This document shows, piece by piece, positions 1 through 13,363 of a stretch of DNA of 64,000 bases. The first letter of the stretch is position 1. Every line of letters starts with the position of its first letter. The DNA is from Escherichia coli (GTDB lineage Bacteria; Pseudomonadota; Gammaproteobacteria; Enterobacterales; Enterobacteriaceae), in assembly GCF_016026235.1 (NCBI RefSeq), contig NZ_CP065613.1. One strand, written 5' to 3'. A program made the position numbers and the translations under genes. The notes beneath the pieces were generated by a model. The model did no database searches, was not told the origin of the DNA, and worked only from the letters and a program-made list of their open reading frames with translations.

Positions 1-966
1 CATACCTTTGATTCTTTCCCATGAGCGGGAGGTGAATGTTTTTTCCAGCAAATCAGCTTTTGCGCGTTTGGCGTCGTTACTGGTGCCCCCATGGTGCTTG
101 TTGAGCAACTCGATAATTTCATCAAGTGCGATTTCTTTTGCACGCTTTTCTTTTAGCCATGTCGGTGTACCGTCGTTGGCAAATAATTCACTGTTATCCC
201 GTGAGGTATCGATGCCGAGGTGTTCACCTCCCAGGTTAAGAAACTCGATATGAGGAAGAAAGTTTTTAAATGTTGGGTTTGAAAATACCTGTCCATCAAT
301 ACGGGTGGAGCGATCTTTTAGTATTCTGGCGGTGCGCCACACCTGACCGGTTTCTATGTTCATTTGCTTCTCCATCTGGATCAGGATGGAGGGTTCATAA
401 CCGGTTTCTGTTTCTGCTTTCATTTTTATACCGGTTTTTGCCAACTGGCGTTTGCCATCATCACCTTCGAAAAAGTCATACTCATATCCTGCACGCCCGC
501 ACATAATAATGTGCGCCTGACTGTTAACAAATCGATCGGTAAAGCGTCGCCACTCCTGTTTGAGCCACGCCCAGTCTGAAAATTCCAGTCCTCGTTTACG
601 GTTTCGGCGTCTGGCATACTCGTCGCATAATCCGGTCCAGAAGTGACTGATGGAGTCGATGATCATTACGGAACCGCTGCTTTCCGCTTCATTAATGGCT
701 TCAAGCAGATCAACAAACGAGCGGGTTTTTGCCGTAAATAATTCGATATTTTCCGCATCAAAGCGGGGTTTAACCCAGTCAGAGCCTGTTTCTGTGTCCA
801 GAAACATTACCGGGCGGTTACCAGCTTCAATTCCCCGTTGCCGCATAAGCATTACCAGACCAATAGCCAGTTCGCTTGCTGTGTAGGTTTTGCCGTCGCC
901 AGCAAACCCCATAATTCCTGCTTTTAGATAGGCCTGTGTGTTTATTGCTCGTTGAAAAAGCGCCAT
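1..966 (-). CDS. P-loop ATPase, phage recombination/replication-associated (3' end outside window)
   Basis: Minus-strand ORF from ATG at 966 running off the left edge; own translation shows Walker A GFAGDGKT and Walker B-like VMIIDSIS; start abuts the stop of the Gam-like gene. Confidence 0.6.
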   Translation of the reverse strand, partial: MALFQRAINTQAYLKAGIMGFAGDGKTYTASELAIGLVMLMRQRGIEAGNRPVMFLDTETGSDWVKPRFDAENIELFTAKTRSFVDLLEAINEAESSGSVMIIDSISHFWTGLCDEYARRRNRKRGLEFSDWAWLKQEWRRFTDRFVNSQAHIIMCGRAGYEYDFFEGDDGKRQLAKTGIKMKAETETGYEPSILIQMEKQMNIETGQVWRTARILKDRSTRIDGQVFSNPTFKNFLPHIEFLNLGGEHLGIDTSRDNSELFANDGTPTWLKEKRAKEIALDEIIELLNKHHGGTSNDAKRAKADLLEKTFTSRSWERIKGM

Positions 967-971
967 AGATT

Positions 972-1271
972 TTAGTCCTCCAAATCAATATCAACCTGGT
1001 GGTGGGCAATGGTTTCAGCCATGTACCGGATGTGTTCTGCCATGCGCTCCTGAAACTCAACATCATCATCAAATGCGTGGCTGATTGCCTGTTTATTGGC
1101 ACCGTGGCGTTGCAAATGGTCGATGCAGAGCGATTCAAACAGGTGCTGAGGCAGACCTTTTTCCAGGTCGTCCGCCAGTTCCGTTTCTTTTTCTTCACGA
1201 ACGATCTGCTGGTAGTGGCGAGCCCATGCCATTTCTTCAATACGATCAAAAATCGGGTAAGCGCTCATCAC
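972..1271 (-). CDS. gam: Gam-like host-nuclease (RecBCD) inhibitor
   Basis: 99 aa; strongly resembles lambda Gam C-terminal region ([17 protein letters not shown]...[17 protein letters not shown]) from memory; paralog of the 56348..56644 gene. Confidence 0.85.
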
Positions 1272-3204
1272 TGGTCACTCCAAAATTTTCAAGCTTGTTG
1301 GCAATCATCATTGCGATGTCAGGGATTGCAGGCGCATAGGCTATGCACGCAGGATTCGCACATAAACCGTAAACCGCCGCAATCAACACCTGTTTTTTCC
1401 AGTTGAGTTCATCTTCGCCAGTTTCATTATTGCTATCATTATGCTGATCGCTGCCAGCGTTCTCCGGTAACAAATCATCAGCTTTTTCCGTTTTCTTCGG
1501 CTCTTCTTCCTGTGCTTCATCTGGTTTTTTTTCGTCAAAAGTTTCCTGATAAGTTGCGTCTCCCATCACCGCGCCACAGTCAGGGCAGTTATCCTCGCCA
1601 GTCTGATTGCAGGGTGTTCCCTCCTCCGGTTCGCTGTTCTGGTGCTGTTTATCTTCAGTCTGTCGCACTTCATTTTCCGTTTTTTTGACTTCATTTGAGG
1701 AGATATGATGACCGGGAATCCATTTCGGATCATTCGGGTCGCTAATCCCTTCAACAAATTCTCCGCGAGAGGCAGCCAGTAATTTGTCTGCATCGACAGG
1801 ATTTTTGGGCGGAATGTTTTTCCGGGCTTCATGGAGTTCTGCCCGCAGTTCCTGATATTTCGCATCAACAGCATTTACCTGTGACTGAGCATCCAGCGGC
1901 TGCGTGTCCTGATGATGTTCAGTTGCATCCGGTTCCACTGTTTCAGCCGTTGCCTGTTCATCTGCCATTGCGCAAGATGGTTGCGGTTTTTCTTCATCAT
2001 CCTGTTTTCCTTCTTCTGTTACTCGCTGCGGCATCGGGGCAGAGGAGCGACCGCAGGCAATATCCACGATTTCCGGATCAGGGTTGGCATGATCGGTTTC
2101 AGTCAGTACTTTGTTCAGATATTCAGTGACGTGTGCGGGGATGACCTCGATCCCAATTGGTGCTTCTTTCACGGACGCAACCACGATGGCGCGGGAATAA
2201 TCCAGCCCGCCAGGCATGGTGATGAATTTGTCGCGGAAAACAGAAAAGGGTGGTTTATTTTCAGCGATAATTTCCTCAATGCGTTTAGCGTGTGCCGGAT
2301 GAAGGTTATAGATGTCCACGTCCATTGAACGGGCCAGTACGCCAGTGGCTACATCGCGCGTCAGTGACGTCAGATCGTGGACGAAACCTTCGCCGCGATC
2401 GGTGAGGTTCCCGCCGCCAGCATTAGCACCGGAAGTCGTGCGAGTGATGCGTGAAACACGATTCCCTTTTCGCCATTCTTTTGTCAGAAGACCGCGATCA
2501 ATGTGTTCGGTATCCAGCCAGGCTGAAATGAAATTCTTAAATTCATAGGGCTGATGTTTTTTCGTGATAGAGAAAACTGCCTTAATTGCATCAGTCAGGC
2601 GGAGCAGGGCGGCATTATCCAGAGTTGTCGGTTCTGCCATGCCGCGTATGGCCAACAGCAGATTCTGGACATAGCTGTTTTCCTGATCCATCTCAAGAGC
2701 AGTAATGTGTTTGCGTTGTTCACGGGTGGCATGATGCAGGTATTTCCGATCCCCGGCAGCATACGTAAAAATGTGCAGAAGACGCTGTGTGAACCGCAAA
2801 GTGGCTACAGAGACTTCGCAATCCTGGCAATCCTCGTGGGCGTCTGCCTGCGCGTTTTCTTCCTGGCCTCCCGCCAGTTCTTTGGTTTCTTGAGCATTAT
2901 CCTGGTGGTGAACGTCGTCTGGCGCTGCTCCCGGTTTTAGTTCCCATGTCATGGAGTCTTTGCTGAGTTGATAGCGTTCACTCCAGGTAAAATCGATCTC
3001 ACCTTCAGGGGGAAGGTCATTAACGACAGGAAAATTTGTGGCAACAGCTTTAAAATAGTTGCTCAGTTTTTTACCTGACTTAACGAGCAGATAGTCCAGA
3101 GTGGTGCTGGTCGATTCAAAATCGTCGCTTGCCCACAGGACGACGTCAGGTTCACCGGATGATTTTTTCGCTTTCCGTAACAGGAAGAGTGGTTTTGTGC
3201 TCAT
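1246..3204 (-). CDS. Large acidic hypothetical protein of the early-left operon
   Basis: 652 aa ORF; D/E/Q-rich low-complexity segments; Cys pairs CQDCE and CPDCG; family not recognised. Confidence 0.5.
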
Positions 3205-3332: not shown

Positions 3333-3626
3333 TCAGAGTTGCCAGAAATTCGGCTTTTTTTCTGCGGGCAGATTATTTCCGATGTAAACCAGGCACATTT
3401 TTGTGGCACCTTCAACAAGAGTTTTAAAGTTTCCTGATAGACCGTCGATATCAACCACAGTGAATGGGGTTTCTTTATTTTCTGTTTTAATTACGTAGCC
3501 AATATGCTTTCCTTCCAGGTAAACCTCGTGAACAATGTTATCAGTAGTTGCAACAGTGGCTTCATAATTGGTGTTCATGTTTTTCTCCTTAATTAAGGTT
3601 GAGCGAATCCCTGCCATTGCTGGCAT
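3333..3626 (-). CDS. Hypothetical phage protein
   Basis: 97 aa ORF in co-oriented early-left gene series. Confidence 0.45.
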   Translation of the reverse strand: MPAMAGIRSTLIKEKNMNTNYEATVATTDNIVHEVYLEGKHIGYVIKTENKETPFTVVDIDGLSGNFKTLVEGATKMCLVYIGNNLPAEKKPNFWQL

Positions 3627-3652: not shown

Positions 3653-3934
3653 TTAAAGTTCGTGTGCCATCTGGTCTTTTTCGGCGCAGATTTCACTACA
3701 ATATTTGCGTTTCTTTTTCCTCATCATGGTTCCGTGCATGTAAATAAGTTCAGCAGTGTAAGCCTTATCAGGGCTTACTTGTCTGTCACACAGGCCATAA
3801 GCACAGGGAATTAAATCGGGATCACCTTTCTGCTGGAGGGTTTTTTTGATTATCCATAACAATTTTTTGATTCCGGTGTGTGTTATGGTCTGCTGAGGTG
3901 CAGAGGTAAAACAATAATCAAGCATAGGGTTCAT
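3653..3934 (-). CDS. Hypothetical small Cys-containing protein
   Basis: 93 aa ORF; lysine-rich with CAYGLC...CSEICAEKD. Confidence 0.45.
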   Translation of the reverse strand: MNPMLDYCFTSAPQQTITHTGIKKLLWIIKKTLQQKGDPDLIPCAYGLCDRQVSPDKAYTAELIYMHGTMMRKKKRKYCSEICAEKDQMAHEL

Positions 3935-3950: not shown

Positions 3951-4505
3951 TTATTTTAAAGAAAGTAATTGTTCCACAGTCATATTTTTAATTGCGCCCC
4001 GGTTAACAAGAGTCCATCCCTGTTTTTCCAGATAAAACCGGAAAGTCTCCAGGGTACAGACCAGTGCGCCATCAGGAACGGTTTCGGTGAATTCGACATT
4101 GCCGAATTTGTCGAAGTGAACAACCAGAGTGCGACCATCACCCGGAATCATCTTGTCAGCAGGTGGGGTGTTATTCTGGCGCAGTTCGGCCTCCATGCGG
4201 TCGAACTCAGCAATGTAGGCTTCCTTGAATGCGGCGGCTTTTTTGCCAGTGAAGCCCATCATCAGGAAAACGAAGCCGTTTTTGGTGATTTGGTACATTG
4301 GGCGTTTTTCGCCTTTGGCGTCGGTATAGGTGACGGGCTTAAAATTAAGCCGGTTAAACTCCGGCGAGCATTCGAGAGTTTCGATCTTCTGAATAACGTT
4401 TTTGTGCATTTTCCGGAAGAACTTCGCAACCGCAACAGACGTAGTGACAGCGCGACCATTTTCGATGGTTACGTCAGGGTGAGAAAGGGTAAGGATAGTA
4501 GCCAT
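3951..4505 (-). CDS. Rha-family phage regulatory protein
   Basis: Motif TKNGFVFLMMGFTGKKAAAFKEAYIAEFDRME typical of Rha; start taken at internal Met (4505); long ORF extends to 4799. Confidence 0.6.
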   Translation of the reverse strand: MATILTLSHPDVTIENGRAVTTSVAVAKFFRKMHKNVIQKIETLECSPEFNRLNFKPVTYTDAKGEKRPMYQITKNGFVFLMMGFTGKKAAAFKEAYIAEFDRMEAELRQNNTPPADKMIPGDGRTLVVHFDKFGNVEFTETVPDGALVCTLETFRFYLEKQGWTLVNRGAIKNMTVEQLLSLK

Positions 4506-4670
4506 GATGGCAGCCTCGATAGTCAGTTTAAATAACTCACCACCAGAGGTAGCAATCTCATGGGTGGTGAGACGCACAGGGTTGCTACAACCGGTGACTA
4601 CCGAAACCGGCCAGCCTTGCGGCTGCCCTGCACGCCCCACCATAATCTGAATGTGGCTGTGCTTGACGCA

Positions 4671-4694
4671 TAAAAAAACCGCCTGAGCGCGGTT
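4671..4694 (-). terminator. Intrinsic terminator (minus strand)
   Basis: Stem aaccgc/gcggtt with 6-nt loop followed by a 7-A run on plus strand (U-run on minus transcript). Confidence 0.45.
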
Positions 4695-4821
4695 ATGCGC
4701 AGTAGTCATCGTCGGGGTAGCAATCCCGGCCCCCGTTTTATGAGGTGCAGGTGCACTATAATTCCACCCGTTCTGGTTTTCAATAGCTACATTCAACATT
4801 TTCTCTCACCTTTCATCACCG

Positions 4822-5206: not shown

Positions 5207-5503
5207 ATGAATATGCCAACGTATCTCGCCAGAGTAGAACTATATAATGCTGAGCCAGAGGATTACGAAGGGCTTCATAAATATATGCTCTCACTAGGAT
5301 TCAGGAGAACGATCCCCCATGGAGATGGTTCGTATAATCAACTCCCGGACGGAACTTATGTTTCCGAAAAGGGCGGTGATATTTATCAAATTCGCAGCCA
5401 GATATCTGACTATGCAGACCGACTATCCGGGTATCGCGCGTCTGTTTTTGTTTGCGAATTCAGTCAATGCGCATGGTATTTATACCCCGCCAAGACCCGG
5501 TGA
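5207..5503 (+). CDS. Hypothetical protein
   Basis: 98 aa ORF convergent with and overlapping the 3' end of the 5480..5692 ORF. Confidence 0.4.
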   Translation: MNMPTYLARVELYNAEPEDYEGLHKYMLSLGFRRTIPHGDGSYNQLPDGTYVSEKGGDIYQIRSQISDYADRLSGYRASVFVCEFSQCAWYLYPAKTR

Positions 5504-5692
5504 ATATCCTGCACGGCCTTCTGCTTTGTAGAAGGCTTCTTCGCTATCATAATCGCCAGATTCCAGCGCTTCTTTAGCCAGCCAGATGCGTGCCCCAGTG
5601 CCTGCATTTGGCTCCAGTTGCTGGAGGCGTTTTGCATCTTCTGGGAGTAGAGCGATAACGTGTTTTAATTCTGTCTCGTTCATTTTACTCAC
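5480..5692 (-). CDS. Hypothetical small protein
   Basis: 70 aa ORF; 8-bp overlap with upstream ORF suggests translational coupling. Confidence 0.35.
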   Translation of the reverse strand: MSKMNETELKHVIALLPEDAKRLQQLEPNAGTGARIWLAKEALESGDYDSEEAFYKAEGRAGYSPGLGGV

Positions 5693-5894
5693 CTGAATGT
5701 CTTCCCAACCAACGACGTGCGCCAGCTTCGGTTTTAAACGTTTTGCTTTTGGTATACGTCATGGCGGTGAATGTGCCGTCCTGGTTGGGGAACACGCCGT
5801 ACACCAGAGATTCGTTGTTGCCAAGATCGATAGTATTCATGTTGACCCCATTTCCCCTTAACGCCGGGGTAGCGGAACTGTTTGCTGAGAACAC
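5685..5894 (-). CDS. Hypothetical small protein (start possibly at internal Met, ~51 aa)
   Basis: 69 aa ORF immediately downstream of the DicA-like repressor on the same strand. Confidence 0.35.
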   Translation of the reverse strand: MFSANSSATPALRGNGVNMNTIDLGNNESLVYGVFPNQDGTFTAMTYTKSKTFKTEAGARRWLGRHSGE

Positions 5895-6042
5895 CGTGCG
5901 GTGTCTTGATGAATGAAATTTAGAATAACCTAAGATGGGCGGCCAAGATTTTTATGTAGAAAAACCTAAGTTTTTTGATGTAAAAAACACAAGTGTTTGA
6001 AAGTTTGTGCTTTTTATTACAGGGTGTGGAGAAAAAAGGGGA

Positions 6043-6450
6043 TTATTTGTTTGCGCTTCTTTTGCGAGCTTTGAGTAGTTCTTCAAAAAGTTTGTTGAAA
6101 TTTTCAACTCGAGCACGCATCTCTGACAACAGGGCCTTTTGCTCTGACTCAGGCAGTGCGTCGAACAGTTGAAGTAACTCTTTTTGATCTTCTGTCAGAA
6201 TGGCTGGCTGATTATCCGGGATCGGTTCGCCTGGTTGTTTATCTTCATCCCCAAAAAGAAGCCAAGTCGGTGAGCACTGAAGCGCTTGGCTCAGTGCGAA
6301 TAATCTTTTCCCCGCCGGCTGTGTTTCATCTCTTTCCCATTGAGAAATTGTTACGTGAGCCACTTTGACCAGCTTACCTAATGCGGCCTGAGACAGTTTT
6401 AATTTTTTACGCCTATGTAAGAGGCGAGCACCGAAGGTTTCGTTTTTCAT
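6043..6450 (-). CDS. DicA-like HTH (XRE-family) prophage repressor
   Basis: 135 aa; HTH LSQAALGKLVKVAHVTISQWERDETQP; resembles Qin DicA from memory; divergent from a Cro-like gene. Confidence 0.8.
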   Translation of the reverse strand: MKNETFGARLLHRRKKLKLSQAALGKLVKVAHVTISQWERDETQPAGKRLFALSQALQCSPTWLLFGDEDKQPGEPIPDNQPAILTEDQKELLQLFDALPESEQKALLSEMRARVENFNKLFEELLKARKRSANK

Positions 6451-6526
6451 ATTAGGGAATTCTAATTTTTCTTGACTTAGGTTTCTCTACGATCTAGTTT
6501 CCTTAGGAAAATCTAAGGAGCTCGAT
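6451..6526. promoter_or_regulatory. Divergent promoter/operator region between repressor and Cro-like gene
   Basis: 76-bp intergenic with imperfect inverted repeats (ttagggaattctaat; ccttaggaaaatctaagg) and an SD before 6527. Confidence 0.4.
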
Positions 6527-6754
6527 ATGTTGAAAATTGATGCTATAGCGTTTTTTGGCAGCAAAACAAAGCTTGCCAATGCCGCAGGAGTTAGGCTGGC
6601 AAGCATTGCTGCATGGGGGGAACTGGTTCCTGAAGGTCGCGCGATGCGCCTGCAAGAGGCATCTGGCGGGGAACTTCAGTACGACCCCAAAGTTTATGAC
6701 GAATATCGTAAGGCAAAACGACCTGGGAAGGTGATTCATGAAAATCAGGCATGA
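6527..6754 (+). CDS. DicC/YdaS-like Cro-type regulator
   Basis: 75 aa; resembles DicC/YdaS from memory (FGSKTKLA...GRAMRLQEASGGELQYDPKVYDEYRK). Confidence 0.7.
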   Translation: MLKIDAIAFFGSKTKLANAAGVRLASIAAWGELVPEGRAMRLQEASGGELQYDPKVYDEYRKAKRPGKVIHENQA

Positions 6755-7160
6755 GCACATCGAATCAGTGCTGTTAGCCCTGGCAGCCGAAAAAGGGCAG
6801 GCGTGGGTCGCTAACGCAATTACTGAAGAATATCTGCGGCAGGGGGGCGGCGAATTGTCTCTGGTACCAGGCAAGGACTGGAACAATCAGCAGAATATCT
6901 ATCACCGTTGGTTGAAAGGTGAAACGAAAGCGCAAAGGGAAAAAATTCAGAAACTGATCCCTGTGGTTCTGGCAATTCTTCCGCGTGAGCTGCGTCACCG
7001 ACTCTGTATCTTCGATACCCTGGAACGCCGTGCATTACTGGCGGCGCAGGAAGCGTTGAGTACGGCAATTGATGCGCATGATGATGCTGTCCAGGCCGTT
7101 TACCGGAAAGCACATTTCAGCGGTGGTGGGTCGCCCGGCGATTCTGTCGTAGTGCATTGA
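6738..7160 (+). CDS. YdaT-like protein
   Basis: 140 aa ORF overlapping the Cro-like gene end; position and size as in Rac ydaS-ydaT. Confidence 0.55.
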   Translation: MKIRHEHIESVLLALAAEKGQAWVANAITEEYLRQGGGELSLVPGKDWNNQQNIYHRWLKGETKAQREKIQKLIPVVLAILPRELRHRLCIFDTLERRALLAAQEALSTAIDAHDDAVQAVYRKAHFSGGGSPGDSVVVH

Positions 7161-7204
7161 TTGAAATTAATCGTGCCGGATTGTTTTGTTCGGTATCAGT
7201 TAAA

Positions 7205-7624
7205 TGTAACGCTGCGAGCGTTACAAGGTGAAAACAAATGGCTTCAAACTGGATAAAGCTCGAGGTTATTACGCCGGATAAGCCGGAAATATTCAGGCTT
7301 GCTGAGATTCTGAATATTGATCCAGATGCCGCATTAGGGAAGGTTATTCGCTTCTGGGCATGGGCGGATCAACAAATGATAGACGGTAATGCAGATTGTA
7401 ACGCTCGCGGCGTTACAAAAAGTGCAATAGATCGCATCACTTTTATGTCTGGTTTTGCTGATGCGTTAATTCAGGTTGGATGGCTGGTCGAAAATGACGG
7501 TGGGCTTTCTCTACCTAACTTTGAACGTCATAACGGAAAAAGCTCTAAAAAACGGGCGGTTACAAACGAGCGAGTAACAAAAATACGCGAACTGAAACGA
7601 AAAGGTAACGCTGCCAGCGTTACA
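7205..7624. repeat. Four copies of a ~21-bp palindromic iteron (TGTAACGCTnnnAGCGTTACA)
   Basis: Copies at 7205-7225, 7397-7417, 7558-7579 (variant), 7604-7624, in and just upstream of the replication gene. Confidence 0.55.
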
Positions 7625-10464: not shown

Positions 10465-10691
10465 TTTTATGGGGCACCTTTCTGATTGATTTCATATTGG
10501 CGAGGTAAGTAGAATGACTGCGGGTGCTTGAGGCTATCTGCTTCAGGCATGAACACCAAAAGGCAGATAGAGAAAAGCCCCAGTTAACATTACGCGTCCG
10601 GCAAGACGCTTAACATTAATCTGAGGCCAATTTCATGCTTTGCACATGTAGGTTAGCCTCTTACATGCCGAAAGGCAAGGAGAAGCAGGCT

Positions 10692-10847
10692 ATGAAGCAG
10701 CAAAAGGCGATGTTAATCGCCCTGATCGTCATCTGTTTAACCGTCATAGTGACGGCACTGGTAACGAGGAAAGACCTCTGTGAGGTACGAATCCGAACCG
10801 GCCAGACGGAGGTCGCTGTCTTCGTAGACTACGAATCCAGGAAGTAA
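10692..10847 (+). CDS. hok: Hok/Gef-family type I toxin
   Basis: 51 aa MKQQKAMLIALIVICLTVIVTALVTRKDLCEVRIRTGQTEVAVF, near-canonical Hok; in-frame upstream extension from 10635 may be mok-like. Confidence 0.8.
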   Translation: MKQQKAMLIALIVICLTVIVTALVTRKDLCEVRIRTGQTEVAVFVDYESRK

Positions 10848-13052: not shown

Positions 13053-13129
13053 GGCCCTTTAGCTCAGTTGGTCAGAGCGAGCGACTCATAATCGCCAGGT
13101 CGCTGGTTCAAGTCCAGCAAGGGCCACCA
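13053..13129 (+). tRNA. tRNA-Ile2 (anticodon CAU; could also be read as Met)
   Basis: Hand-folded cloverleaf; anticodon loop ctCATaa; close to E. coli ileX-type from memory; ends CCA. Confidence 0.8.
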
Positions 13130-13130
13130 A

Positions 13131-13207
13131 CCACCACTAGCTCATCCGGATAGAGCATCAACCTTCTAAGTTGACGGTGCGAGGTTCGAGTCCTCGGTGG
13201 TGGGCCA
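13131..13207 (+). tRNA. tRNA-Arg (anticodon UCU)
   Basis: Acceptor ccaccac/gtggtgg, anticodon loop ctTCTaa, T-arm ggttcgagtcc, 3' GCCA. Confidence 0.75.
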
Positions 13208-13209
13208 GC

Positions 13210-13285
<76 letters not shown>

Positions 13286-13288
13286 TAT

Positions 13289-13363
<75 letters not shown>

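What the first reader, a model, noticed from the sequence alone, without database searches (positions are those of the whole stretch)
1246..3204. Large acidic protein preceding a Gam-like gene and an ATPase in the early-left operon
A 652-aa ORF with long D/E/Q-rich low-complexity stretches and two Cys pairs sits immediately upstream of a Gam homologue and a Walker-motif ATPase. Large acidic proteins next to recombination genes are sometimes nucleases (RecE-like) or DNA-mimic anti-defence proteins, but I cannot place this one.
Basis: partly seen in the sequence, partly recalled or inferred. Interest (0 to 1): 0.45.

Follow-up and report, generated by a model that had tools for sequence, protein, structure and literature searches.

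The report
Nuclease-less RecE relative (RecE-2/YdfE type)
The large acidic ORF is an intact prophage gene that keeps the still-unexplained N-terminal two-thirds of the RecE recombination exonuclease but carries a short conserved two-helix tail where the nuclease should be, so it cannot be an exonuclease and offers a natural handle on what the RecE N-terminus does.

Summary
Window 1246..3204(-) is a 652-aa, strongly acidic ORF (net charge -47). Its 3' end overlaps a lambda-type gam, and a Walker-A ATPase (Pfam AAA_24, weakly Sak4-like) follows.

It is not an orphan. Residues 1-597 match positions 1-596 of the 877-position RecE/exonuclease VIII model. The PD-(D/E)XK nuclease domain is absent. 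In its place is a ~45-aa tail, L[TS][YF][RQ]QQLT[IL]AAL[QY]G[LM]CANPA...[DE][DE][IL]PxMAxxLA.

The tail is real:
- It ends 22 of 105 core-containing family representatives, down to about 30% identity.
- Its dN/dS is about 0.15.
- It links the ORF to the Qin-prophage YdfE family and to the "RecE-2" proteins mentioned in one sentence of a 2025 paper, with function unknown.

RefSeq mislabels intact copies as pseudogenes.

The family is modular: an N-terminal alpha/beta domain, a highly conserved helical core with no solved structural relative, disordered acidic linkers, and then alternative C-termini (5'-3' nuclease, DEDD 3'-5' exonuclease, tail, others).

Nine of nine diverged tail-type loci lack gam and any recombinase, so the neighbours here are a local mosaic.

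Most likely it is a non-nucleolytic platform protein, not a DNA mimic and not a decayed gene. The mechanism is inferred, not shown.

The parts
1246..3204 (-). Whole ORF, 652 aa: nuclease-less RecE paralogue (RecE-2/YdfE type)
   Evidence: ORF listing. NCBIfam NF007259 residues 1-597 on model positions 1-596/877, 872 bits, below the 1269 cut-off. phrog_607. Full-length 650-680-aa homologues at 81-87% identity.
2914..3204 (-). aa 1-97: N-terminal alpha/beta domain (start of Pfam Exonuc_VIII PF06630, which spans aa 2-182)
2818..2913 (-). aa 98-129: acidic disordered loop ending in the C126-x2-C129 pair
   Evidence: pLDDT below 50 for aa 98-123. Low occupancy and conservation. The Cys pair occurs only in Rac-type N-termini.
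2005..2817 (-). aa 130-400: confidently modelled, mostly helical domain. The family-wide conserved core is aa 236-400 (window 2005..2499), with a Gly-rich loop [13 protein letters not shown] and a polar cluster R237, T268, D269, R270, D297, D335, S337, R338, E369, H372
   Evidence: pLDDT 90-98. 86% identity to the 75/02 Stx copy against 36-51% in the flanks, and dN/dS 0.08-0.10. Residues conserved at 80% or more across 54 sequences. No PDB fold or sequence relative.
2499..2517 (.). Mosaic breakpoint at the N-terminal region/core boundary (about aa 230-235)
   Evidence: Window 1..~2500-2517 is about 99% identical to E. coli CFSAN029787 and VL7S7 copies, which then diverge. From there on the window follows Rac recE.
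1414..2004 (-). aa 401-597: acidic, largely disordered linker with a conserved helix (aa 443-479), short conserved motifs ([20 protein letters not shown]) and a degenerate Cys knuckle (C532, C540-x2-C543)
   Evidence: pLDDT below 50 for aa 403-441 and 499-600, helices at 443-462 and 472-479. dN/dS 0.33-0.61. The CxxC-x7-CxxC motif is intact in relatives and has lost its first Cys here.
1270..1413 (-). aa 598-645: conserved C-terminal two-helix tail that replaces the nuclease domain
   Evidence: Conserved in 21-22 diverged representatives; A10, A11, G14, C16, N18, P19 invariant. dN/dS 0.15-0.16. Helices at 598-616 and 624-640, pLDDT about 60. No Pfam or PDB match.
1246..1271 (-). Overlap of the ORF's last 8 codons plus stop (SDERLPDF*) with the gam start, in another reading frame
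   Evidence: Read directly from the sequence. This extension is absent from other clades.
972..1271 (-). gam: lambda-type RecBCD inhibitor homologue, 98-99 aa
   Evidence: phrog_259 E=5.5e-54. 87.5% nucleotide identity to lambda gam.
1..966 (-). AAA_24 / Sak4-like RecA-fold ATPase, first ~322 of 365 codons (runs off the window)
   Evidence: Translation with Walker A GDGKT. Identical 365-aa ORF in L003 and L004. Pfam AAA_24 1e-13. phrog_1366 1e-79 and phrog_124 'Sak4-like ssDNA annealing protein' 1e-8.
3333..3626 (-). RacC-like small gene directly upstream
   Evidence: NCBIfam NF007306 E=3.6e-41. phrog_4778. Sits at the racC position of Rac-SA53.
3653..3934 (-). YdaE-family gene upstream
   Evidence: NCBIfam NF041288 YdaE_coli, 87 bits against a cut-off of 35.

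Best explanation
Shown: the ORF is an intact, selectively maintained, nuclease-less paralogue of RecE, of the kind one paper calls 'RecE-2' and that includes full-length relatives of the Qin-prophage protein YdfE. It is built from four parts: (1) an N-terminal alpha/beta domain; (2) a highly conserved helical core with no solved structural relative; (3) disordered acidic linkers; (4) a conserved ~45-aa two-helix tail in the position where RecE carries its PD-(D/E)XK exonuclease. It therefore cannot resect DNA itself. Across the family the N-domain plus core is constant, while the C-terminal module varies: 5'-3' nuclease, DEDD 3'-5' exonuclease, tail, or other helical ends. Inferred: the N-domain plus core is a targeting or anchoring platform that binds a conserved partner or DNA structure. 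This would be the same unknown task that the RecE N-terminus performs when it boosts linear-linear recombination. The C-terminal module is the exchangeable output. In the tail form the output is non-catalytic, and the tail most likely mediates self-association or docking of a partner supplied in trans. In this prophage a recombination event at the domain boundary has placed the gene next to gam and a Sak4-like ATPase. There it plausibly acts as a non-nucleolytic accessory to end protection and annealing, but it does not depend on these neighbours.
For: Identity: NF007259 residues 1-597 on positions 1-596/877, below cut-off; PF06630; no nuclease by Pfam or PDB sequence search; alignment to Rac RecE and to the Shigella phage 75/02 Stx homologue shows the nuclease replaced by a shared tail.
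Not a pseudogene: intact 646-683-aa ORFs in several mosaic backgrounds; the tail is conserved down to about 30% identity; dN/dS is 0.15-0.16 for the tail and 0.08-0.10 for the core, against 0.33-0.61 for the linker.
Modularity: of 105 core-bearing representatives, 22 have the tail, 20 PD-(D/E)XK, 14 DEDD, 25 other C-termini; Pfam PF16473 in 9 and RecT in 1 of 54 members; the mosaic breakpoint falls exactly at the N-region/core boundary.
Independence from recombinases: 9 of 9 diverged tail-type loci have no gam, recT, bet, erf or AAA_24; the small downstream ORFs belong to at least four unrelated families.
Structure: confident folded domains separated by disordered linkers, the architecture of a tethered multi-module protein.
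Against: No experiment or detectable homology assigns any activity to the platform or the tail.
The core's conserved polar/Gly-rich cluster would fit an enzyme as well as a binding site.
The tandem-tail AlphaFold2 test for self-association was inconclusive: helix pLDDT is about 75-87 in the best model, but the five models have means of 64, 60, 44, 44 and 43.
In the full-length model the tail has pLDDT of only about 60, and no contact map was available.
The link to linear-linear recombination comes from RecE with its nuclease attached and has not been shown for a nuclease-less form.
Most tail-type genes sit in prophages with no recombination module, which weakens a recombination-specific role.
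Confidence: 0.55

Rival explanations
1. The conserved core is itself an uncharacterised enzyme, for example one acting on nucleotides, nucleic acid or a host protein. The tail-type protein would then be a stand-alone effector such as a host-takeover or anti-defence factor, and the nucleases in RecE-type relatives would be add-ons to that activity.
For: The core is extremely constrained: 86% identity where the flanks are 36-51%, and dN/dS 0.08-0.10. A family-wide conserved Gly-rich loop plus R/D/S/E/H cluster (R237, GG263-264, TDR268-270, D297, D335, S337, R338, E369, H372) resembles an active or phosphate-binding site. The gene persists in 9 of 9 loci that have no recombinase. The fold has no solved relative, so an unknown activity is possible.
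Against: No motif or fold match to any enzyme family. No PADLOC hit. High conservation is equally expected for an interface with a conserved host protein. The spatial clustering of the conserved residues could not be checked because no coordinates were available.
Confidence: 0.2
2. It is a DNA-mimic or other acidic decoy that inhibits restriction enzymes or RecBCD.
For: Net charge -47 with long D/E-rich stretches. Located in the early-left operon beside the RecBCD inhibitor gam, where anti-defence genes often sit.
Against: The acidic stretches are predicted disordered, poorly conserved with low alignment occupancy and weakly constrained (dN/dS 0.33-0.61). They are also present in nuclease-bearing RecE. 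Known mimics such as Ocr, ArdA and Gam are folded charge-patterned proteins, and no fold or sequence similarity to them was found. The conserved parts (core and tail) are not notably acidic.
Confidence: 0.08
3. It is a decaying recE pseudogene left by a deletion that removed the nuclease domain and recT. This is how RefSeq/PGAP annotates the E. coli copies ('incomplete; missing C-terminus').
For: PGAP flags the homologous ORFs as pseudogenes. The score is below the RecE equivalog cut-off. The Cys knuckle is degenerate in this copy. K-12 ydfE really is a pseudogene, cut by IS2E.
Against: The frame is open to a conserved stop in every copy examined. The tail is a conserved motif across 22 representatives at 50% clustering. 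Purifying selection acts on tail and core. The same architecture is found in several genera and mosaic backgrounds.
Confidence: 0.04
4. The hydrophobic tail is a C-terminal membrane anchor that localises the protein, and whatever it binds, to the inner membrane.
For: Highest Kyte-Doolittle 19-residue window of the protein is 1.72, at aa 606-624. Small-xxx-small spacing (AAxxG) in helix 1.
Against: The uninterrupted hydrophobic run is only about 11 residues. Conserved polar residues (QQ, Q/Y, N) lie within helix 1, and helix 2 is amphipathic and acidic at its start. This is typical of a soluble helical hairpin.
Confidence: 0.05

Closest known systems
RecE / exodeoxyribonuclease VIII of the Rac prophage (NCBIfam NF007259; Pfam PF06630 + PF12684; nuclease-domain crystal structure described in PMC11611040)
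   Same: Homologous over aa 1-597. The 5' two-thirds of the gene is 96-97% identical at the DNA level to Rac-type recE. Same N-domain, core and acidic linker organisation. Same place in the operon, after racC and ydaE.
   Different: No PD-(D/E)XK nuclease domain, so no exonuclease activity is expected. A conserved 45-aa tail sits in its place. No recT partner: gam and an AAA_24 ATPase follow instead.
'RecE-2' proteins of lambdoid Rec modules (PMC12315714, Genome Res 2025)
   Same: [quoted passage not shown] That matches this ORF.
   Different: The paper gives no sequence features and its supplementary tables were not readable here, so identity with their specific set is inferred.
YdfE family of Qin-like prophages (Pfam PF27430 YdfE_N / PF27432 YdfE_C; phrog_26058, function unknown)
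   Same: Full-length YdfE-type proteins (P0212, P0249, P0261 and others) share the core and the C-terminal tail with this ORF and occupy the same operon position before xis and int.
   Different: Their N-terminal ~200 aa are of the YdfE_N type, related to the Rac-type N-domain only after profile iteration. This ORF is a chimera of a Rac-type N-terminus with a YdfE-type tail. K-12 YdfE itself is an IS2-truncated fragment lacking most of the core and all of the tail.
Family members with a C-terminal Rv2179c-like DEDD 3'-5' exonuclease (PF16473), e.g. P0132
   Same: Same N-domain, core and linker (NF007259 positions 1-603, 1110 bits).
   Different: They carry an unrelated 3'-5' exonuclease where this ORF has the tail.
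Lambda Red module (exo-bet-gam) and the HK620 Sak4 module
   Same: The neighbours here are a lambda-type gam and an AAA_24/Sak4-like ATPase. In Shigella phage 75/02 Stx and E. coli F2_407_2_2 the same tail-type gene precedes gam-bet-exo.
   Different: Neither lambda nor the second prophage in this window (canonical exo-bet-gam at 54.9-56.6 kb) has a RecE-2 gene. RecE-2 is an optional addition and not part of the Red or Sak4 machinery.

Membership tests
RecE / exodeoxyribonuclease VIII (functional exonuclease) | N-terminal Exonuc_VIII region (Pfam PF06630) | tested here: met
   PF06630 on aa 2-182, E=2.9e-66.
RecE / exodeoxyribonuclease VIII (functional exonuclease) | Whole-protein score above the curated NCBIfam equivalog cut-off (NF007259, 1269 bits) | tested here: not met
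   872.5 bits; only model positions 1-596 of 877 are matched.
RecE / exodeoxyribonuclease VIII (functional exonuclease) | C-terminal PD-(D/E)XK nuclease domain (PF12684; the crystallised RecE nuclease domain) | tested here: not met
   No PF12684 hit. No match to any PDB chain sequence at E<=1. The alignment shows the nuclease replaced by a 55-aa tail.
RecE / exodeoxyribonuclease VIII (functional exonuclease) | Adjacent recT annealase partner | tested here: not met
   The downstream genes are gam and an AAA_24 ATPase. Rac-SA53 has recE-recT.
Nuclease-less RecE-2 / YdfE-type family | Conserved core domain shared with RecE (window aa 236-400) | tested here: met
   The core is detected in 105 of 147 representatives, including YdfE_N/YdfE_C-annotated proteins. 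phrog_26058 hit on aa 158-407, E=3e-31.
Nuclease-less RecE-2 / YdfE-type family | Absence of any nuclease domain | tested here: met
   No PD-(D/E)XK or DEDD domain by Pfam, PDB-sequence search or in-session profiles.
Nuclease-less RecE-2 / YdfE-type family | C-terminal tail motif ...QQLTIAALQGLCANPA...DDIPxMAxxLA at the extreme C-terminus | tested here: met
   The window tail aligns with 20 diverged tails. A, A, G, C, N, P are invariant. dN/dS 0.15.
Nuclease-less RecE-2 / YdfE-type family | Pfam PF27430 (YdfE_N) / PF27432 (YdfE_C) hit on the protein itself | not testable with these tools
   The Pfam library available for scanning did not report these accessions. They appear only as precomputed labels on relatives. 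The link is by homology.
Nuclease-less RecE-2 / YdfE-type family | Distal position in the early-left operon of a Rac/Qin-like lambdoid prophage | tested here: met
   Window order is repressor ... rha/ant, ydaE, racC, ORF, gam, ATPase. In near-identical loci xis and int follow.
DNA-mimic anti-restriction/anti-RecBCD proteins (Ocr, ArdA, Gam-like) | Folded domain with DNA-like surface charge, or homology to a known mimic | tested here: not met
DNA-mimic anti-restriction/anti-RecBCD proteins (Ocr, ArdA, Gam-like) | Inhibition of restriction enzymes or RecBCD | not testable with these tools
   This needs an in vivo or in vitro assay.
Lambda Gam (neighbouring gene 972..1271) | Sequence membership of the Gam family | tested here: met
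   phrog_259 E=5.5e-54 over 97 of 98 positions. PGAP names identical proteins 'host-nuclease inhibitor Gam family protein'.
Sak4-type RecA-fold annealase (neighbouring ATPase) | AAA_24 / Sak4 profile match with Walker A | tested here: inconclusive
   Pfam AAA_24 1e-13 and phrog_124 'Sak4-like' 1e-8, but the best PHROG is phrog_1366, function unknown, 1e-79. No NCBIfam or PDB hit. Annealing activity not testable here.

The most novel reading that the evidence does not exclude
The N-domain plus core shared by RecE, the DEDD-exonuclease fusions and the tail-type proteins is a previously unrecognised functional unit with its own activity. It would be either a new enzyme fold (conserved Gly-rich loop plus R/D/S/E/H cluster) or a dedicated binder of a conserved host DNA-metabolism protein. 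On this reading, tail-type proteins such as this ORF are autonomous effectors that prophages keep even when they carry no recombination genes. The long-unexplained RecE N-terminus would then be the ancestral, primary function, and the nuclease a later attachment.
Probability: 0.2. Interest if true: 0.7.

Novelty: new member of a known kind. Interest (0 to 1): 0.4.

Why it matters
RecE/RecT is a workhorse of recombineering, yet a 2023 review still calls the N-terminal ~600 residues of RecE a domain 'of unknown function' (PMC11611040). The only phenotype reported for that region is better linear-linear recombination. This ORF, and the family it belongs to, show three things:
- That region is an independent, selected unit that nature uses without the nuclease.
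- It is combined with at least three different C-terminal modules.
- It is retained in prophages that have no recombinase at all.

This gives clean natural constructs (platform plus 45-aa tail) for asking what the platform binds or does. It also exposes a systematic annotation error: intact genes are labelled as recE pseudogenes or as 'exodeoxyribonuclease VIII', in STEC and Shigella Stx phages among others. Finally, it gives recombineering developers a candidate accessory factor to test with Red-type or Sak4-type systems.

Tried and rejected
- **Direct PDB sequence searches.** The protein, the tail profile and the whole-family profile gave nothing meaningful.
- **Tail as a domain borrowed from another family.** No Pfam hit. 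Database searches with the tail returned only RecE-labelled fragments or short remnants. The 79-aa Serratia ORF looks like an internal-deletion remnant at the same prophage position.
- **Gam, or a conserved small downstream gene, as the tail's partner.** Rejected. 9 of 9 diverged loci lack gam, and the downstream small ORFs fall into at least four unrelated families.
- **Tandem tail-linker-tail AF2 model as a self-association test.** Inconclusive.
- **Cys pairs as a defining zinc site.** Rejected as a family feature: they are clade-specific and degenerate here.
- **K-12 YdfE by direct BLASTP.** No similarity, because the fragment lacks most of the core and all of the tail. The link runs through full-length relatives.
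- **First DEDD classification.** It was contaminated by shared linker sequence and was redone with a clean seed.
- **C-terminal 'DERLPDF' as an SSB-tip mimic.** Set aside. It is encoded by the overlap with gam and is absent from other clades.
- **Literature.** No functional study of YdfE. Fu et al. 2012 is not held. The supplements of PMC12315714 are not held.
- **PADLOC.** No hits for the ORF or its neighbours.
Full report
**1.
The minus-strand ORF 1246..3204 encodes 652 aa from an ATG preceded by GAGG. It has 116 D+E against 69 K+R, net charge -47. The acidity is concentrated in aa 98-129, 401-441 and 499-600, and there are Cys pairs at 126/129 and 540/543. The next gene, 972..1271(-), is a lambda-type Gam (phrog_259 E=5.5e-54; 87.5% nucleotide identity to lambda gam). 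Its start overlaps the last 26 nt of the ORF. After gam comes an ATPase with Walker A GDGKT that runs off the left edge of the window. Its intact 365-aa form in near-identical E. coli loci hits Pfam AAA_24 (1e-13), phrog_1366 (unknown function) and, weakly, the Sak4-like annealase PHROG. All these genes are transcribed leftward from a cI/DicA-like repressor and cro pair, after rha/ant-like, YdaE-family and RacC-like genes.

**2. What the protein is.**
It is not an orphan. Residues 1-597 align to positions 1-596 of the 877-position NCBIfam equivalog for exodeoxyribonuclease VIII (RecE). The score is 872 bits, below the curated 1269-bit cut-off, because the last third of the model is unmatched. 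Pfam finds only the N-terminal Exonuc_VIII family (PF06630, E=2.9e-66) and no PD-(D/E)XK domain. There is no similarity to any PDB chain, although the RecE nuclease domain has been crystallised (PMC11611040).

An alignment with full-length Rac RecE and with a 682-aa protein of Shigella phage 75/02 Stx shows the nuclease domain replaced by about 55 residues. Those residues are shared with the Shigella-phage protein, even though the two are only 57% identical overall.

**3. The tail is a real, selected module, so the gene is not a wreck.**
RefSeq/PGAP annotates the E. coli copies as 'RecE family exodeoxyribonuclease, incomplete, missing C-terminus' pseudogenes. However, the frame is open to the same stop in every copy examined.

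An exhaustive search of 1.84 billion cluster representatives found 243 relatives. Among the 147 retrieved, 105 have the conserved core, and 22 of these end in the same motif, L[TS][YF][RQ]QQLT[IL]AAL[QY]G[LM]CANPA...[DE][DE][IL]PxMAxxLA, down to about 30% overall identity.

Nei-Gojobori dN/dS against two diverged DNA copies:

| Region | dN/dS |
|---|---|
| Tail | 0.15-0.16 |
| Core | 0.08-0.10 |
| Acidic linker | 0.33-0.61 |

The tail profile matches no Pfam family and no solved structure. In sequence databases it occurs only at the end of these proteins or in short remnants of them. Tail-encoding DNA is detectable by blastn in 105 of 5426 complete E. coli genomes, including O104:H4 and several STEC strains.

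**4. Place in a larger modular family.**
Diverged tail-bearing members carry the precomputed Pfam labels YdfE_N and YdfE_C and match phrog_26058, function unknown. The K-12 Qin gene ydfE is an IS2E-truncated pseudogene. Its N-terminal ~200 aa is distantly homologous (E about 1e-11) to the N-termini of those members, although it shows no direct similarity to the window protein. After profile iteration the Rac-type and YdfE-type N-termini connect.

The C-termini among the 105 core-bearing representatives are:

| C-terminal module | Representatives |
|---|---|
| Tail | 22 |
| PD-(D/E)XK nuclease (true RecE) | 20 (one also matching RecT) |
| Rv2179c-like DEDD 3'-5' exonuclease (Pfam PF16473) | 14 |
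| Other recurrent helical endings | 25 |
| Ends shortly after the core | 24 |

The window gene is itself a recombinant. Window 1..~2500-2517 (ATPase, gam, tail, linker, core) is about 99% identical to E. coli CFSAN029787 and VL7S7. Those strains then carry a different N-terminal 235 aa, whereas the window continues as Rac-type recE with racC and ydaE. The breakpoint falls at the N-region/core boundary.

**5. Structure.**
An AlphaFold2 model built on a 54-sequence alignment gives the following:
- aa 1-97: a small alpha/beta domain, pLDDT above 90.
- aa 130-400: a mostly helical domain, pLDDT above 90.
- aa 98-123, 403-441 and 499-600: disordered.
- aa 443-479: a helical segment (helices 443-462 and 472-479).
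- The tail: two helices (598-616 and 624-640), pLDDT about 60.

The residues conserved family-wide form a Gly-rich loop and a polar cluster in the core: R237, G263, G264, T268, D269, R270, D297, D335, S337, R338, E369, H372. The CxxC-x7-CxxC knuckle has lost its first Cys in this copy.

**6. Context tells against dependence on the neighbours.**
In the E. coli/Shigella clade the tail-type gene precedes gam plus the AAA_24 ATPase (window, L003, L004) or gam-bet-exo (phage 75/02 Stx and strain F2_407_2_2). In nine of nine diverged loci from other enterobacteria it is followed only by one to three small ORFs, then xis and int. None of these loci has a gam, recT, bet, erf or AAA_24 gene, and the small ORFs belong to at least four unrelated families. 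No phage-encoded partner is therefore conserved.

**7. Literature.**
[quoted passage not shown] - No functional study of YdfE was found.
- RecE's nuclease degrades retron msDNA and RacC blocks the retron toxin (bioRxiv 10.1101/2020.06.22.160242). This bears on the upstream racC-like gene, not on a nuclease-less protein.

**8. Interpretation.**
Shown: this is an intact, selected, nuclease-less RecE paralogue with a conserved tail, belonging to a modular family with a constant N-domain/core platform and exchangeable C-termini.

Inferred: the platform performs the constant task, which is binding a conserved partner or DNA structure. The C-terminal module is the output. Two unrelated exonucleases are alternative outputs, so the platform most likely works in DNA-end metabolism. 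The tail is a non-catalytic output, either self-association (standing in for the nuclease domain, which the 2023 review describes as a tetramer) or docking of a partner in trans.

A tandem-tail AF2 test of self-association was inconclusive. The main rival is that the core is itself an enzyme. The data cannot exclude this, given the conserved polar cluster and the persistence of the gene in recombinase-free prophages.

The DNA-mimic idea is not supported, because the acidic parts are disordered, poorly conserved and shared with true RecE. The pseudogene reading is contradicted by conservation and selection.

**9. Verdict.**
This is an already-glimpsed but uncharacterised kind of protein. The window copy is a new mosaic member (Rac-type N-terminus, YdfE-type tail, gam/Sak4-like neighbours). 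Interest is moderate. It is not a surprise in kind, but it makes the old question of what the RecE N-terminus does directly testable, and it corrects a widespread annotation error.

**Limits.**
- No model coordinates or PAE were available, so neither residue clustering nor tail docking could be examined.
- The Pfam library used for scanning did not report PF27430/PF27432.
- The supplements of the RecE-2 paper were not readable.

Noticed in passing
window 50297..57021 (minus strand): A second lambdoid prophage arm with an integrase (50297..51367), two Ant-like genes, and a canonical Red module: exo (54880..55560), bet (55557..56342), gam (56348..56644), then kil and cIII with the Rfam lambda cIII thermoregulator (56951..57009). 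It has no RecE-2 gene, so the window holds two gam paralogues in two different recombination modules.
   Followed up: partly
window 4560..4748 (minus strand): Rfam C4 antisense RNA (75.7 bits) and isrK (57.6 bits) lie inside the 5' part of the 282-aa Rha/anti-repressor-like ORF 3951..4799. This suggests P1/P7-style antisense control of an antirepressor in this lambdoid prophage.
   Followed up: no
window 13053..13363 (plus strand): A cluster of four tRNA genes (Met-cat, Arg-tct, Thr-tgt, Gly-tcc) within the prophage, upstream of the late region.
   Followed up: no
window 10522..10697 (plus strand): Rfam sok antitoxin RNA (117 bits), implying a hok/sok-type toxin-antitoxin locus inside the prophage.
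   Followed up: no
window 1246..1271; also L003, L004, L010: The ORF's last residues ([16 protein letters not shown] in relatives) resemble the acidic SSB C-terminal tip (DDDIPF, recalled from memory). They are encoded by the out-of-frame overlap with the gam start and are absent from other clades, so this is probably incidental.
   Followed up: partly
L003 7246..9186, L004 7246..9186, L010 ~5300..7292: RefSeq/PGAP marks intact 646-671-aa tail-type ORFs as 'RecE family exodeoxyribonuclease, incomplete, missing C-terminus' pseudogenes and leaves the tail-coding ~150 nt unannotated. Phage records call the same gene 'exodeoxyribonuclease VIII' or 'exonuclease VII'.
   Followed up: yes
proteins P0132, P0143, P0227 and others; P0195, P0135: Some family members fuse the RecE N-domain/core to an Rv2179c-like DEDD 3'-5' exonuclease instead of the PD-(D/E)XK nuclease. 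One or two appear fused to RecT-like sequence. At least two further recurrent helical C-terminal types remain unassigned.
   Followed up: partly
window 1585..1720 (aa ~496-540 of the ORF): This copy, and the identical L003/L004 copies, carries a divergent linker segment ([13 protein letters not shown]...[16 protein letters not shown]). The CxxC-x7-CxxC knuckle found in all other E. coli-clade relatives has lost its first Cys here.
   Followed up: partly
L020/L021 4001..4240 (Serratia quinivorans): A 79-aa ORF made of little more than linker plus tail sits at the RecE-2 position (after DUF1482, before xis and int) of a strongly reduced prophage. It recurs on 9 contigs, so it is either a retained remnant or a minimal tail protein.
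   Followed up: partly
window 52311..52399 (minus) and 48741..48811 (plus): Rfam hits to sRNA-Xcc1 (68 bits, within the second prophage's ant region) and to naRNA4/CssrE (60.4 bits, just above the gathering score).
   Followed up: no
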